DNA of 64,000 bases from the human T2T-CHM13v2.0 reference genome, Homo sapiens: assembly GCF_009914755.1 (NCBI RefSeq), contig NC_060928.1. The stretch is one strand, 5' to 3'. How positions within the stretch are numbered: the first letter of the stretch is position 1; every line of letters begins with the position of its first letter. Under the pieces are notes generated by a model. It had not been told where the DNA came from, did no database searches, and saw nothing but the letters and a program-made list of their open reading frames with translations. The translations under genes and the position numbers were made by a program. This document shows, piece after piece, positions 30,858 to 36,227 of the stretch.

Positions 30858-32615
30858 TACCAAAGTAATCTTACCAAAGATTACCAAAGTCATGTGAAAT
30901 GAAAGGCATCTGAGTTAGCCTCTATTAGTCTGATAAGCACTGACTTTTCTTTAAGCCAATAGATAAAAACTCTTTCAAATAATTTGGTAGTGAGATACCA
31001 CTTCCATGTGACACATTCAATTATATAAATATAACAGACATACAAAGGCAGGTCCAGAAGATTTTTCATTTGGCTGTTTTGAAAAAATTTGCTCCCTTAC
31101 TTTAGATTATTAATAAAGAAATGTTACAGGAGCCAACAAAAGGTGAAGGAGAAAATTACCGTCTCTGGCCTTTTCAAATGAGAGAAAGCACCGAACTTCA
31201 GGGATATCAATCTGAAGAATTAGAAACAGAAACGTTTCTTGAGCAAACAGTCATATTATTTTAGAAGAAAAAATCACAATATAAGATTATTTCTCATATA
31301 AAATTAAATTTCTATTATCCTTTTTGTTTACCAAAGGTACCTTTTAATATGTATAACTTTCCTTACATTTCTCTTGTTTCCTTTTACTTCATTTTATATA
31401 CCTCTAAATAATCTTTGAATTAGATAAAAAATGTTTACCTTTTAATAAAAAAAAACACTTTTTAACGTGTTTCTCTGTATTTTTTAAATTGGAAATTAGT
31501 CAGACATTTAATTAATATCTATTACTTAATATAACCTGGAAATTAGTCAGACATTTAATTAATATCTATTACTTAATATAACCTCAGATTATAAATTATA
31601 TGACAACTTTAATATAATGGATTGAAGTGTCCTGATAGTGGGTACGTATCCACAGTGTTTCACCCCTAAGTTATTTCTGCCCTCTTACATGCCTTGTTTT
31701 CTCTCTTCAGAGGTCTGGCACCTCCAAGAAGGCTCAAAAGATGGAGTAACCAGCTCCCATATGCATTTACCTATGAGCCTTGTTTAACTACTTTTGTTGG
31801 GGGTTCCCTGCAGGGCTGCTGTACATCACAGGGGGTCAAACCCCCAGACACTTTCACTTGGCTTCTGGTCACCCAGGGGCACCGTTTGCCTGGGAGGGGC
31901 AAAATGCCTTTTCTCTTCAGAGTGAGAAAACTCAGTCTCCCATTTATCTACGAAAACAACAGTTCAGTTCCTCGCACAAATGTGCAGACAAGACAATTGT
32001 GCTTAATTTGGGGAGAAAAAGCAGTAGAGAAGACCCTTTAGAATATACCTCTCTGAACCAGATACCAAACAGGTTGCCCAAAAAGGGGTCATTTTCCTTG
32101 TCTTTAGAAAAAGGCAATGGAAAAGATCCTTTAGAATGCACCTCTCAAATAGAATTAGAATCCTAAACAACTTCCTAGGAGGAAAAAAAAATGCAGCTCA
32201 GAACAAATCAAGGACCGGCAACCAAAGGGATGTTCAGGGCTCAGGAGGACTTGCCAGTTTCACTAGAGGAGAAGCTCAAAATCAGGGAGGCTTTCAATGG
32301 GTCCTTGCTTGTACCCTAGCTCCAAGTTTGGGCCACTCCTTCAGTGTTCTGACTCTTCTCTGAGGCCCCACATGTTCAGGCAACAAATTGTTGTTGACAA
32401 AAAGAATCAAACTCTGTAAAATATTTGAAGAGATTTATTCTGAGTCAAAAATGAGTGACCAATGGCCTTTGACACAGACCGTAGGAGATTCTGAGAACAT
32501 GTCCCCAAAAATGGCTAGGGTACAGCTTAGTTTTATACATTTTAGGGAGACATGAGACATCAATCAAATCCATGTAAGATATATTATACAATGGATTTGT
32601 ACAGATAGGTGGACA
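30858..32615 (-). mobile_element. MER4-group ERV internal sequence plus LTR truncated at the duplication junction
   Basis: Aligns with 51606-53446. LTR end TGTTGACAAAAAGAATCAAACTCTGTAAAATATTTGAAGAGATTTATTCTGAG starts at ~32392. Confidence 0.8.
31490..31583 (+). repeat. Perfect 47-bp tandem duplication
   Basis: TGGAAATTAGTCAGACATTTAATTAATATCTATTACTTAATATAACC x2; single copy in the paralogue at ~52247. Confidence 0.95.
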
Positions 32616-32788
32616 CTTCAATTTGTCCACTAAGTTCTAAGGGATGTTTCAAGAAACAACCTATGTATGATATCAGAGTTTATCATATTATTTTTGTATA
32701 AAAGGATAGAAGTGAAAAAACTTTTATACTTGATCTTTAGTTATAAAATTAAGATACTAACTATTCTCTCATTTTTCATTTTTCCAAG

Positions 32789-34032
32789 AGAGCTGACGTA
32801 TCTGAAGAGGTAAGTCACCTTCATTCACAGGAAAACTTAATAATCAAACACATATTGAATTTTTACTCTTGTCTTTATTTTCACAGAAATATCATGAGTG
32901 TAAAAGAAAATTCCTTTCAAGGATTCTCTTGATAATGTTGTGCAGTCCAAACAAGTGTTCTTTTCTGATTATTTAATCTCCTGGTATAATCTGTGATCAT
33001 TTTTGAAATATATGTATATTATGAATGGCTAAAGTGTATATTAATTTCACTTACTCATGATACATTGGCAAAAGTCCCACATGTCTTAGAGAATTTAGGT
33101 GGAAGTTCATAATGCCAATTTAAAGAAGTCAATTATTCTCTGAGAACTAAAATAAATTTGGTAAATAATTATGTTGACATAAATAATAGTTAAAAGCCAA
33201 TTCTACTAAGTATAATATATGCCTATACTGCCATATTACATGTGCTGGCAATCACACAGGTAATATGGGAAGTTCCAATCATTTGATTTGTTGATGGTGA
33301 TAAAGTCTTTCAGTTAAACTGGCTATTCTAAATAAAATAGAATATAGTATTTCTTTAATATATTTCTTAATGTGTATCTTTGATATGTCATTATTGTTTG
33401 ATCTCTCATCTTAATGTGATGGAGTTTAAAAAAATTCTTCTTAGTAATATAATAAATACATTGATAAAATGGCACTAAATAAAAACATAAACATTGGGGA
33501 AGGACAGTTATTTGGGTTAAGAGAAGGCAGAGTTAAAGAATGCAGTAGTGACATGGAGAAACTCCACTTAAGTTGGAAGTATTAAATTTTTCTTTCCCAT
33601 AATACTCAATGATGGGCAAAGTAGTAGCTTAAAGGTAGTATTATAAAAAAAAAAGTTTTAATCCTCATTTGGAGTGGTTGCCTGTAATCAGTATTCCCAT
33701 GTGTACTGTAAAACAAGAACTGGCAACAAAGAGTAAAAAGGTAAATGCTTTATGATTTTTACCTACTTTTACATATTTTTTTATAAAAATGATAAATCTA
33801 ACTAGTAGTTTAAAAATGATATTGCAGTTGATATACGAATTGCAGTTGATACAACAAACTAAGCTTTTAAACACATTATTGTGAAACTCTTGCACTGTCA
33901 CTGTCCCAATTATCTACAGCTTTCTCTAGTTCTTGTGTCTGTATGCAGGAAAGGTCTAACCAACATCAGCCATATCCAGACTATTGGCCATATCCAGCAT
34001 ATCCACCATATTACCTATATCCCTATCCATAG
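32789..34032 (+). pseudogene. Histatherin/statherin-histatin-like pseudogene fragment: ex3 32789-32809 (RADVSEE), ex4 32887-32916 (KYHECKRKFL, donor lost), ex5 33949-34032 (ERSNQHQPYPDYWPYPAYPPYYLYPYP*); 3'UTR homologue ~35608-35800
   Basis: Exon sizes (21 and 30 nt), acceptor contexts (ttccaag, ttcacag, gtatgcag), intron spacing and intron sequence all match HTN3/HTN1. Exons 1-2 are absent. Confidence 0.88.
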
Positions 34033-34331
34033 CCTTACAGTGTTCCTCAGTAACCACAGGACGTAAGTATAAAAGTAGGCTAGGTCTAGTGATATTCTTT
34101 ACTTTCCAAAAATATCCATGCTCACAGTTAAAAGAGGAAAACAAACACGAGATATCAAACAAACAATAGACCCAGTAAGAGATGTGGGAAGGTTTAGCTC
34201 CTTGAAATGTATTTATTTATATAAACACCTCTGAGAGAAAGTTTCTGTCCTGTCGTGGTTAAGAGGCTGGACTCTGGAGAGGAGGAACCCTGAGTTTGTA
34301 TCATGTTCCTGACAACTACTAGTTTCTTTAC

Positions 34332-34685
34332 TGTATTAGTCCGTTCTCATGCTGCTAAGAAGACATACCCAAAACTGGGTAATTTATAAAGGAAAGAGGG
34401 TTAATGGACTCACAGTTTCACATGGCTGGGGAGACCTCACAATCATGGCAGAAGACGAAGGAAGGGGAAAGGAACTTCTTACATGGCTGCAGACATGAGG
34501 GCATGTGCAGGAGGACTCCCATTTATAGAACCATCAGATCTCCTGAGACTTATTCACTACCACAAGAACAGTATGGAGGAAAATGCTCCCACCATTCAAT
34601 TATCTCCATCTGGCCTGCCTTTGACATATGGGGTTTATTACAATTCAAGGTGAGATTCCAGTGGGGACACAGCCAAACCATATCA
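34332..34685 (-). mobile_element. THE1-type MaLR solo LTR
   Basis: TGTATTAGTCCGTTCTCATGCTGCT...GGGGACACAGCCAAACCATATCA, ~354 bp. Confidence 0.92.
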
Positions 34686-36227
34686 ACCTTGAAATTAGTA
34701 GTTTCTTAATCTTCTTTAAACATCAGTTTTCTTATCAACAAAATAGATATTATAATAATACTTAACCTCATTTTAGAATTGGGAAGACTATTAACAAATA
34801 TATTACGTAAAATCCCCTGATTAGAAAGGTGTACAGTTATGACTGCAGATTTCCATGCCACTAATTCTGTTTCAGAATGTTGTTCAAAACTATGCCTTCT
34901 AAAACACAATCTTTGGAGAAGATGTACAAGCACTATATGGGAAATTGTGGGAAATTTACATTATATGCCCTAAGTAAATCCAAGAGCAATTACTGAAAGA
35001 ATCACTAGTATAATACCAACAAGGAGATATAAAAACGTCTTCAATTTCTTTTTTAGAATATCAGTTTTATCTAACTATACACAACATTAAATGTTCTGAA
35101 TTCTGTGCAATATTAAATATTTATCTACAAAATAAAGCAAATTTTTAGAGATTAAAGATAACTTCTACATTCATCAAAGTTGAAATATTTCATGGAATTT
35201 TAAATATTTCTCAGTGCATTGTGAGATTTTATTCCAATTGAATATCCTGTTGACATTAATGATATGGGAAACAGCCTGAACTTGATCTTCTAGGCATTTG
35301 ATAATAGCTGATGAAATTTAATCAAGAAAGGATACATTTAAAATATTATTTGGGGAAAATAAATATGAATAAAGTATGTAGGCTGTATTTAAGTGGGAGA
35401 AAAAATAGAATAATAATGGAACTTAAGAGAAATTTAAATTTAAATTGCAGGTGTTGGATGATAATTTTTATTTATTCTGATACCCATTTAACAAGTATTT
35501 AATTGCGTATTATGTGTCAAATATTATTTTGAGCCCTGCATTATATTAGCCTAAATGATCTGTAAATAGCTATGCTGCACTAGGAAGAATATAAATGTTT
35601 TCTACAGGAGTTGGTTGAATTACCAAAAAGACAAAGTAAAATGAAAGACTATGATTTAGTGTATTTTCTCTGTTTCAAGATGACTGACTTCCTAATGGAT
35701 GTTTGATTGGATAGTTGCAATTTCAAACCATTAAGCTGTTTGCAGTGCTGTTTCTGAGTAATAGAAGTCCATTCTTTTTATAAGTGCAATATATTTTAAA
35801 CAATTCTTATGCAAAAGTTCTTTATTTCTATTTTCTATATTTACAAATATAGCTATTCCTTACATCACTTCTTTTACCCAGTTTGAGAAGCACTGACTGA
35901 AGCACTCTATGTCAGAGGTCCTTTAGAGTCAATTATTCCTAATTTAGTCTGTAGTATTTTATATTTTACAAGCATATAATCCTTAAGCTCAGCTAGATTA
36001 TTGGGCCTATTTATTCTGACATTTGATTGGCTCTGGGTTTCCTTTGGTACACCTAATTTTCTCACCCTGGAAGTTTCTCACATTTTTTACCTCAGTTTCT
36101 ACAAGACAGAAGGTAACCGCACCGCCCCCCAGCCCCCACCCACCCCACTCATTGTCACTGCACAGTAAAGGGAACACAGACCCCAAACCATCTAATGCCC
36201 CCCATCAGTTTGTCTGCAATGACTTTC

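What the first reader, a model, noticed from the sequence alone, without database searches (positions are those of the whole stretch)
32615..35800. Hidden third family member between HTN3 and HTN1: a histatherin-like gene fossil
Seen: three mini-exons with histatin gene geometry. Ex3 32789-32809 AGA GCT GAC GTA TCT GAA GAG (RADVSEE) has both splice sites intact. Ex4 32887-32916 reads KYHECKRKFL, but its donor gtaagt is replaced by tcaagg. Ex5 33949-34032 is a fully open 27-codon ERSNQHQPYPDYWPYPAYPPYYLYPYP*. The introns align with HTN3 introns but are far more diverged than HTN1 is from HTN3. Knowledge: DSSEE is the statherin N-terminus and (R/K)xHxxKRKF is histatin exon 4. Bovine histatherin, recalled from memory as ...IRA-DSSEE-KRHRKRKKHH-RGYFQQYQPYQRYPLNYPPAYPFP, combines these three modules and was described as a ruminant chimera. 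Inference: this is a primate orthologue or close relative, so the SEE + basic + P/Y design may be ancestral, with statherin and histatins as specialised derivatives. I cannot confirm it is unannotated.
Basis: partly seen in the sequence, partly recalled or inferred. Interest (0 to 1): 0.9.

Follow-up and report, generated by a model that had tools for sequence, protein, structure and literature searches.

The report
Truncated old statherin/histatin-family pseudogene
Between the human histatin 3 and histatin 1 genes lies a dead, headless copy of an old sister gene that joins a statherin-like start, a histatin-like middle and a proline/tyrosine-rich tail, and it hints at what the ancestor of both saliva proteins looked like.

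Summary
Window 32615-36214 is collinear with HTN3, HTN1 and STATH from intron 2 to beyond exon 6.

**What it is.** It is an unprocessed pseudogene.
- It has no promoter, exon 1 or signal-peptide exon 2.
- Its homology starts at 32615, at a junction of the about 20-kb duplication that made HTN3 and HTN1.
- The exon 4 donor is TC instead of GT, the poly(A) signal reads AATATA, and 114 bp including the exon 6 acceptor are deleted.

**It is not alone.** All genome-wide matches fall in one 72-kb stretch of chr4 holding seven copies:
- STATH, HTN3 and HTN1.
- This relic.
- The relic's 3'-only sister, Q1f (9980-12215).
- Fragment C1.
- Copy A, inside lncRNA LOC105377269 upstream of STATH. A has the same three-module design, with three in-frame stops.

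**Relationships.** The old lineages are nearly equidistant (K80 0.30-0.34, against 0.094 for HTN3-HTN1). The 5' block groups relic with A, apart from STATH and the histatins. The 3' block is unresolved.

Human paralogues support a three-module ancestor. Orthology to bovine HSTN could not be tested. By position, copy A matches HSTN, not this relic.

The parts
30858..32612 (+). End of the first duplication unit. It is a copy of window 51605-53442, the sequence downstream of HTN1, which overlaps the RefSeq enhancer 51680-52879.
   Evidence: blastn 30858-32145 to 51605-52855 at 83.9%, and 32135-32612 to 52969-53442 at 91.2%
32612..32615 (.). Duplication junction. The tail copy ends here and intron 2 homology of the relic begins. 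Nothing of exons 1-2 lies upstream.
   Evidence: Alignments. A sensitive search for exon 1 and exon 2 finds them only in STATH, HTN3 and HTN1, plus CSN1S2AP exon 2.
32615..32788 (+). Remaining 3' end of intron 2
   Evidence: 79% to HTN3 20261-20366 and collinear onward
32789..32809 (+). Exon 3 equivalent, 21 nt, RADVSEE, both splice sites intact
32887..32916 (+). Exon 4 equivalent, 30 nt, KYHECKRKFL. It is 24-25 of 30 nt identical to HTN1/HTN3 and 15 of 30 to STATH.
32917..32922 (+). Destroyed exon 4 donor: tcaagg, where the other four copies have gtaagt
33949..34032 (+). Exon 5 equivalent, 27 open codons plus TAG, P/Y-rich (8 P and 8 Y of 27). It is 60 of 84 nt identical to copy A without a gap.
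34332..34690 (.). Dispersed repeat inserted in the intron 5 equivalent. It is not part of the gene homology.
   Evidence: About 85% matches on many chromosomes to query positions 1714-2083. There is a gap in paralogue homology between 34320 and 34703.
35603..35624 (+). Junction of a deletion of about 114 bp that removed the exon 6 acceptor and about the first 70 nt of exon 6. The same deletion is in Q1f at 11613-11634.
35611..35814 (+). Exon 6 (3' UTR) remnant. The poly(A) signal equivalent at 35788-35793 reads AATATA, where HTN3, HTN1 and STATH have AATAAA.
35815..36214 (+). 3' flank still homologous to the 3' flanks of HTN3, HTN1, STATH and A
9980..12215 (+). Q1f, sister copy of the relic's 3' end only, upstream of HTN3 and interrupted by a repeat at about 10168-11413
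   Evidence: 92% and 85% blastn. K80 0.113 to the relic, sister with 100/100 support. Shares the exon 6 deletion.

Best explanation
Window 32615-36214 is a non-functional, unprocessed, 5'-truncated pseudogene of the statherin/histatin family. It is the remnant of an old paralogue lineage, called X2 here, that is neither statherin nor histatin.

**Shown**
- It keeps the family's exons 3, 4, 5 and part of exon 6 in order, in phase and on the + strand.
- It has no promoter, exon 1 or signal-peptide exon 2.
- It has lost the exon 4 donor, the exon 6 acceptor and the canonical poly(A) signal.
- Its homology starts exactly where a copy of the sequence downstream of HTN1 ends.

**Inferred history**
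1. An early burst of tandem duplications gave at least five lineages: A, STATH, C1, X2 and HTN.
2. X2 encoded a secreted peptide with an S-E-E start, a basic K-x-H...K-R-K-F middle and a P/Y-rich tail.
3. The later duplication of about 20 kb that produced HTN3 and HTN1 had one breakpoint in X2 intron 2. This copy was therefore born without a head and has drifted since.
4. The upstream sister copy was later deleted down to its last 1 kb (Q1f).

It most likely does nothing today. Its value is as a record of the family's ancestral design.
For: - **Collinear paralogy** with HTN3, HTN1, STATH and copy A, E down to 1e-165.
- **Exon geometry and translations**.
- **Exons 1 and 2:** homologues are found at 3 of the 7 family copies in the 94 kb examined (STATH, HTN3, HTN1). 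The only other hit is CSN1S2AP exon 2.
- **Junction at 32612/32615:** 32135-32612 is 91% identical to 52969-53442 and then abuts intron 2 homology.
- **Duplication-age sister Q1f:** K80 0.113, against 0.057-0.112 for HTN3-HTN1 depending on block. It shares an identical deletion of about 114 bp at the exon 6 acceptor.
- **Defects:** donor TCAAGG and AATATA.
- **Distances:** the old lineages are 0.30-0.34 apart.
- **Tree:** ML gives (relic,A | STATH,(HTN3,HTN1)) with aLRT 98.8 / UFBoot 100, and AU rejects both alternatives. The result is the same without exons (99/100). Informative sites in block I are 41 against 13 and 9.
- **Genome-wide:** all 7 and all 13 reported matches lie in chr4:73322372-73394018, with all 6 of 6 and 8 of 8 candidates scored.
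- **Neutral simulation:** P(no stop in the 44 codons) is 0.60 since the duplication, so the open frame needs no selection.
Against: - The 3' block (intron 5 to exon 6, 1290 columns) does not resolve the old branching. Informative sites are 19, 15 and 18, and STATH+A gets only 63.5/68. The relic-A grouping therefore rests on the 5' block, and gene conversion or a mosaic history is not excluded.
- The tree is unrooted, so relic and A may be a clade or successive outgroups.
- 'Born truncated' assumes a simple tandem duplication. The expected full-length upstream copy is not there. Only Q1f is, and the 1.5 kb before it (8486-9980) matches nothing in the 94 kb. That requires an extra deletion.
- No transcript data could be consulted, so silence is inferred from the anatomy and the RefSeq table only.
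- All trees use MAFFT alignments of AT-rich introns at about 73% identity, ungapped columns only.
Confidence: 0.88

Rival explanations
1. The relic lineage is the primate orthologue or co-orthologue of bovine histatherin (HSTN). On this view HSTN is a survivor of an ancient eutherian gene, of which human keeps only fossils.
For:
- They sit apart from STATH+HTN in the 5' block.
- The old splits are about 3.4 times deeper than HTN3-HTN1 (0.32 against 0.094). By recalled primate rates that would place them near or before the primate-ruminant split.
Against: - No bovine or other mammalian DNA or HSTN protein was available in any tool, so there was no sequence test at all.
- Cow HSTN lies directly after CSN2 and before STATH (supplement table; gene order also in passages of PMC11505306). 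In human that position is held by copy A, not by this relic.
- Pajic et al. 2025 (PMC12457735; section 9 and passages of section 8 read) argue from synteny and similarity to cow STATH that HSTN is an Artiodactyla-specific duplicate.
Confidence: 0.3
2. The relic is a recent chimera or gene-conversion mosaic built from STATH (exons 3 and 5) and a histatin gene (exon 4).
For: Exon 3 is closest to STATH (17 of 21 nt) and exon 4 is closest to HTN3/HTN1 (24-25 of 30).
Against: - Every segment of the relic is about equally far (K80 at least 0.30) from STATH and from the histatins.
- In eight successive windows, the STATH-relic and HTN-relic groupings stay at 1-7 informative sites each. Relic+A has the most sites in the first four windows, which carry all three exons (9-11 against 1-7), and there is no switch around the exons.
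- Copy A carries the same combination independently.
Confidence: 0.02
3. The exons are still used, for example as part of an unannotated transcript or read-through from HTN3, or the region acts as regulatory DNA for HTN1.
For: - Exon 3 has both splice sites and exon 5 has its acceptor and an open frame.
- The deletion at exon 6 creates a plausible new acceptor, tttctacag|gag.
- A paralogue of a RefSeq enhancer lies just upstream, at 30858-32145.
Against: - There is no promoter, first exon or signal peptide.
- The exon 4 donor is destroyed.
- The RefSeq table has no transcript here.
- The open frame is expected under neutrality (P about 0.6 for stops. From the indel rates, my own estimate is about 0.4 once frameshifts are included).
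Confidence: 0.06

Closest known systems
Human histatin genes HTN3 and HTN1
   Same: Same locus, strand, exon sizes (21 and 30 nt) and phases. Exon 4 is 24-25 of 30 nt identical and encodes the same K/R-x-H-x-x-K-R-K-F core.
   Different: - Non-coding K80 is 0.335-0.341, against 0.094 between the two histatins.
- Exon 3 encodes S-E-E rather than S-H-A/E-K.
- Exon 5 is P/Y-rich with 1 His of 27 residues, and is not shortened or His-rich.
- No exons 1-2.
- Placement with the histatins is rejected, AU p = 0.009.
Human statherin gene STATH
   Same: Exon 3 is 17 of 21 nt identical and ends in S-E-E. Exon 5 has similar length (84 against 87 nt) and P/Y richness.
   Different: Exon 4 is only 15 of 30 nt identical. 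STATH exon 4 is the outlier of the whole family, at 13-16 of 30 to every other copy. Placement with STATH is rejected, AU p = 0.011.
Copy A, inside lncRNA LOC105377269, window -24494..-19931 (chr4:73321507-73326070)
   Same: It is the closest relative in the exon-bearing block (K80 0.316; 41 of 63 informative sites). It has the same three modules. Exon 5 is 60 of 84 nt identical without gaps. It also lacks exons 1-2.
   Different: A has three in-frame stops (one in exon 4, two in exon 5) but intact donors. It lost exons 1-2 by an internal deletion, not at a duplication junction. It lies upstream of STATH.
Bovine histatherin (HSTN)
   Same: It sits in the same SCPP cluster.
   Different: Its position between CSN2 and STATH is not the relic's.

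Membership tests
Statherin/histatin (STATH/HTN) gene family of the SCPP cluster | Collinear homology of introns and exons with STATH, HTN3 and HTN1 | tested here: met
   blastn E 1e-116 to 1e-165 from intron 2 to the 3' flank
Statherin/histatin (STATH/HTN) gene family of the SCPP cluster | Mini-exons of 21 and 30 nt in phase 0, followed by a terminal coding exon 5 and a non-coding exon 6 | tested here: met
   Exon 6 is present but has lost its acceptor and its first 70 nt or so.
Statherin/histatin (STATH/HTN) gene family of the SCPP cluster | Exon 1 (5' UTR) and exon 2 (signal peptide) | tested here: not met
   No homologue near the relic. They are found only in STATH, HTN3 and HTN1. It is therefore a family pseudogene, not a gene.
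Statherin/histatin (STATH/HTN) gene family of the SCPP cluster | Location in the casein/SCPP cluster between CSN2 and CSN1S2 | tested here: met
   Annotation table supplied with the finding; chr4 coordinates
Histatin clade (HTN3/HTN1) | Groups with HTN3/HTN1 on non-coding sequence | tested here: not met
   AU p = 0.009 against (relic,HTN). Informative sites: 9 of 63 in block I and 18 of 52 in block II.
Histatin clade (HTN3/HTN1) | His-rich, shortened exon 5 | tested here: not met
   1 His of 27 residues. No 27-nt or 9-nt gaps relative to STATH and A.
Statherin proper | Groups with STATH, and has the statherin-type exon 4 | tested here: not met
   AU p = 0.011. Exon 4 is 15 of 30 nt identical.
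Histatherin (HSTN) orthologue | Sequence similarity to bovine HSTN exons and introns beyond composition | not testable with these tools
   No mammalian genome other than the window's own is held. Protein searches found no candidate or one unrelated 414-aa repeat protein. No held paper prints the sequence.
Histatherin (HSTN) orthologue | Conserved position: first family member after CSN2, upstream of STATH | tested here: not met
   Cow order is CSN2, HSTN, STATH, CSN1S2. The relic lies downstream of STATH between HTN3 and HTN1. Copy A holds the HSTN-like position.
Histatherin (HSTN) orthologue | Three-module peptide: acidic S-x-E, basic block, P/Y-rich tail | tested here: inconclusive
Met on the relic's side.

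The most novel reading that the evidence does not exclude
The human genome keeps two fossils (this relic and copy A in LOC105377269) of a 'histatherin-type' lineage that split from the STATH+HTN lineage in a burst predating crown primates.

If so:
- The common ancestor was a three-module peptide: S-E-E, then K-x-H-G-x-K-R-K-F, then a P/Y tail.
- The cationic core of the histatins is inherited, not invented from statherin.
- Statherin's exon 4 is the fast-evolving novelty.
- Cattle HSTN is a surviving orthologue of this lineage, rather than a ruminant chimera or an Artiodactyla-only duplicate of STATH.
Probability: 0.35. Interest if true: 0.6.

Novelty: new member of a known kind. Interest (0 to 1): 0.45.

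Why it matters
Statherin and the histatins are among the most abundant human saliva peptides. Their origin is usually told as CSN1S2 to STATH to HTN3 to HTN1 (Pajic et al. 2025, section 9 read).

The decayed copies add four more data points from the human genome alone, and they polarise the changes:
- The K-R-K-F/His exon 4 is shared by three of four old lineages.
- S-E-E and the P/Y tail are shared across the deepest resolved branch.

This makes the question of bovine histatherin's origin (chimera, lineage-specific duplicate or ancient gene) directly testable with intron trees. It also suggests that lncRNA LOC105377269 is built on a family pseudogene. For genome annotation, it is an unlisted unprocessed pseudogene in RefSeq. 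The medical or functional consequence is probably nil.

Tried and rejected
- **Chance resemblance:** rejected by E-values.
- **STATH x HTN chimera:** rejected.
- **Hidden exons 1-2 upstream:** a sensitive blastn-short search found none.
- **Other copies elsewhere in the genome:** none. The first whole-relic search was swamped by a dispersed repeat, so it was repeated with repeat-free halves.
- **C1 as the missing 5' half of the relic or Q1f:** rejected. C1 is 73-77% identical to the relic where Q1f is 85-92%, and the two overlap by about 165 bp of homologous positions.
- **Open exon 5 as a sign of selection:** rejected by the neutral simulation.
- **Protein-database route to HSTN-like proteins:**
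  -, with a 40-aa window frame including 13 intron-coded residues, found no candidate.
  - One search gave 1 hit at E 4e-4, an unrelated 414-aa repeat protein.
- **Papers sought for an HSTN sequence or a prior description:**
  -. 'LOC105377269' is in 0 papers, and 'histatin pseudogene' and 'statherin pseudogene' have 0 occurrences.
  - Kawasaki 2011, Kawasaki 2009 and Elsik 2009 are not held.
  - Sabatini 1993, Rijnkels 2003 and de Sousa-Pereira 2013 were not seen. A prior mention there cannot be excluded.
- **Ancestral-state reconstruction with iqtree:** The ancestral-design argument is therefore only a comparison of which modules occur on which side of the tree.

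
Full report
**1. The observation**

Reading the window and a coordinate script confirm every base-level statement.
- Exon 3 equivalent, 32789-32809: RADVSEE, with tccaag| and |gtaagt.
- Exon 4 equivalent, 32887-32916: KYHECKRKFL, with tcacag| and then tcaagg. HTN3, HTN1, STATH and copy A all have gtaagt there.
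- Exon 5 equivalent, 33949-34032: 27 codons and TAG after atgcag|.

blastn shows that the relic is collinear with HTN3 (20261-25704) and HTN1 (42666-48088), from the last 175 bp of intron 2 to beyond exon 6. Identity is 66-75%, with E from 1e-116 to 8e-150 for the two main blocks. This is homology, not chance.

**2. What is missing**

A sensitive search of the 94 kb examined (window plus 30 kb upstream) used exon 1 of HTN3 and exon 2 of HTN3, HTN1 and STATH, each with 40-nt flanks. It finds these exons only in STATH, HTN3 and HTN1. The one other hit is a weak match of exon 2 to CSN1S2AP exon 2 at 57879-57960. The relic therefore has no promoter, no 5' UTR exon and no signal peptide.

Further defects:
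- The exon 4 donor is destroyed.
- About 114 bp spanning the exon 6 acceptor and the first 70 nt or so of exon 6 are deleted, with the junction at 35610/35611.
- The poly(A) hexamer reads AATATA at 35788-35793, against AATAAA in HTN3, HTN1 and STATH.

**3. Why it is headless**

- The 478 bp just upstream (32135-32612) are 91% identical to 52969-53442, downstream of HTN1. The stretch 30858-32145 is 84% identical to 51605-52855.
- The alignment shows the tail copy ending at 32612 and intron 2 homology starting at 32615.
- Other stretches of similar identity (85-92%): the 3' end of the relic (35231-36230) matches 9980-12215 upstream of HTN3 (92% and 85%), 36503-37300 matches 14181-15002 (91%), and HTN1 matches HTN3 (about 88-90%).
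- So two units, about 9980-32612 and 32615-53442, are copies of each other. This is the HTN3/HTN1 duplication.
- The simplest reading is an unequal exchange between a point downstream of the single ancestral histatin gene and a point in intron 2 of the neighbouring gene X2. That leaves the downstream X2 copy, this relic, truncated from birth.
- The upstream copy now survives only as Q1f. It is sister to the relic (K80 0.113, support 100/100) and carries the identical exon 6 deletion, which therefore predates the duplication.
- A weak point: the upstream copy's exons 1-5 are gone, and the 1.5 kb before Q1f match nothing local. A further deletion has to be assumed.

**4. The relic is one of several fossils**

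The window's own genome could be searched, and 30 kb upstream were fetched. With repeat-free halves of the relic as queries, every reported match (7 and 13; all 6 of 6 and 8 of 8 candidates scored) lies in chr4:73322372-73394018.

The copies, in chromosomal order and all on the + strand:
- **A** (window -24494..-19931), inside lncRNA LOC105377269.
- **STATH.**
- **C1** (-6298..-3217): 5' flank and promoter region, exons 1-5 deleted, part of intron 5.
- **Q1f.**
- **HTN3.**
- **The relic.**
- **HTN1.**

Copy A also lacks exons 1-2, through an internal deletion between the HTN3 equivalents 16854 and 20437. Its exons translate as RADTSKE / KCHG*RRKFY / GRYH*YNTYL*YQLYPAYPTYYPYSYPYAYNAS* with intact splice sites. 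That is the same three modules as the relic, with three stops.

**5. Relationships**

- **Distances.** On 2626 ungapped columns, K80 is 0.094 for HTN3-HTN1 and 0.30-0.34 among the old lineages: STATH-HTN 0.299, relic-A 0.321, relic-STATH 0.340, relic-HTN 0.335-0.341. The relic is thus about as far from the histatins as statherin is.
- **Tree.** ML gives (relic,A | STATH,(HTN3,HTN1)) with aLRT 98.8 and UFBoot 100. The AU test rejects relic+STATH (p = 0.011) and relic+HTN (p = 0.009). Removing the exons changes nothing (99/100).
- **Where the signal lies.** It comes from the 5' block (intron 2 to exon 5): 41 informative sites against 13 and 9, consistent over four successive windows.
- **Unresolved 3' block.** The 3' block (intron 5 to exon 6) gives 19, 15 and 18 sites, and STATH+A gets only 63.5/68.
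- **Limits.** The tree is unrooted, and C1 is not placed with confidence.
- **Arrangement.** The alternating order A-STATH ... relic-HTN fits a duplication of a two-gene unit. This is inference only.

**6. The ancestral-design question**

- **Exon 4.** It is 23-25 of 30 nt identical among relic, A and the histatins, at or above the non-coding level. STATH exon 4 matches all of them at only 13-16 of 30.
- **Exon 3.** It ends in S-E-E in both the relic and STATH. STATH is the copy nearest to all others (16-17 of 21).
- **Exon 5.** It is long and P/Y-rich in the relic (8 P, 8 Y of 27), A (4 P, 12 Y of 31) and STATH (7 P, 7 Y, 7 Q of 28). In the histatins it is shortened by gaps and His-rich. Relic and A are 60 of 84 nt identical without a gap.
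- **Reading.** Each module occurs on both sides of the one resolved internal branch. The economical reading is a three-module ancestor: statherin then rewrote exon 4, and the histatins rewrote exon 3 and truncated exon 5.
- **Limit.** A formal ancestral reconstruction was not available, and I attempted none otherwise.

**7. Is the open frame meaningful?**

- Neutral substitution under the fitted GTR model leaves the 44 codons free of stops with P = 0.60 at t = 0.056 (half the relic-Q1f distance) and P = 0.235 at t = 0.178 (the whole terminal branch).
- Frame-breaking indels run at about 0.015 per aligned nt between old paralogues and 0.003-0.008 between HTN3 and HTN1.
- By my own arithmetic from these rates, survival of the frame since the duplication has P of about 0.4. 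Over the whole branch it is about 0.09.
- So the frame says nothing about present function. At most it hints weakly that X2 was a working gene for part of its earlier history.

**8. HSTN**

- No bovine sequence could be obtained. The protein searches returned nothing relevant, and the held papers print no sequence.
- The supplement table of PMC12457735 gives the cow order CSN2 (85.449-85.458 Mb), HSTN (85.459-85.472), STATH (85.497-85.507), CSN1S2 (85.530-85.549). The introduction of PMC11505306 gives the same order.
- The positional counterpart of HSTN in human is therefore copy A, not the relic.
- Pajic et al. 2025 (section 9 read in full, passages of section 8; one search covered the supplement) favour an Artiodactyla-specific duplication of STATH for HSTN. 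[quoted passage not shown]
- The roughly 3.4-fold deeper divergence of the old human lineages relative to HTN3-HTN1 suggests a considerably older burst. By recalled primate substitution rates it may lie near the base of placentals. This dating is inference from memory of rates, not a computed result.

**9. Prior knowledge**

- Seven of the ten allowed full-text searches found no description of a human histatin or statherin pseudogene. They also found no paper mentioning LOC105377269.
- The human rows seen in the supplement passages of the 2025 paper run from HTN3 straight to HTN1, with no entry between them.
- The key older papers (Sabatini 1993, Rijnkels 2003, Kawasaki 2003 and 2011, de Sousa-Pereira 2013) are not held, so an earlier mention cannot be excluded.

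**10. Verdict**

This is a real, correctly described and, in RefSeq, unannotated family pseudogene. It is very probably inert. It was truncated at the HTN3/HTN1 duplication junction and belongs to an old lineage distinct from statherin and the histatins. Together with copy A it gives modest but genuine evolutionary information. Interest is moderate. The HSTN orthology claim remains open and points to copy A at least as much as to this relic.

Noticed in passing
outside the window: window -24494..-19931 (L009, chr4:73321507-73326070): Copy A is a STATH/HTN-family pseudogene lying inside the annotated lncRNA LOC105377269. Exons 1-2 are deleted. Exons 3-5 have intact splice sites but three in-frame stops. 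It holds the same position relative to CSN2 and STATH as cow HSTN.
   Followed up: partly
outside the window: window -6298..-3217 (L011): Fragment C1, downstream of STATH, consists of a family 5' flank and promoter region joined directly to the end of exon 5 and part of intron 5. Exons 1-5 are deleted. It is 73-77% identical to the relic and its lineage is unresolved.
   Followed up: partly
window 30858-32145 versus 51605-52855: The RefSeq enhancer 51680-52879, downstream of HTN1, has an 84% identical paralogue downstream of HTN3 and just upstream of the relic. Each histatin gene may therefore carry its own copy of this element.
   Followed up: no
window 39452-39781 versus 37755-38084: A 330-bp stretch of HTN1 intron 1, just after exon 1, is a 97.6% identical copy of sequence 1.7 kb upstream. 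It is much younger than the HTN3/HTN1 duplication.
   Followed up: no
window 26162-26747: An internally repeated array with self-matches at several offsets and 72-78% identity. It lies in the region masked as repeats downstream of HTN3.
   Followed up: no
window 57879-57960: The CSN1S2AP signal-peptide exon region is 69-70% identical over 83-86 nt to exon 2 of STATH, HTN3 and HTN1. This is in line with the published derivation of STATH from an alpha-s2 casein gene.
   Followed up: no
window 20884-20913, 43282-43311 and L010 (STATH exon 4): STATH exon 4 is only 13-16 of 30 nt identical to exon 4 of every other copy, while its flanking introns are about 73-78% identical. This marks very fast, probably adaptive change on the statherin branch.
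   Followed up: partly
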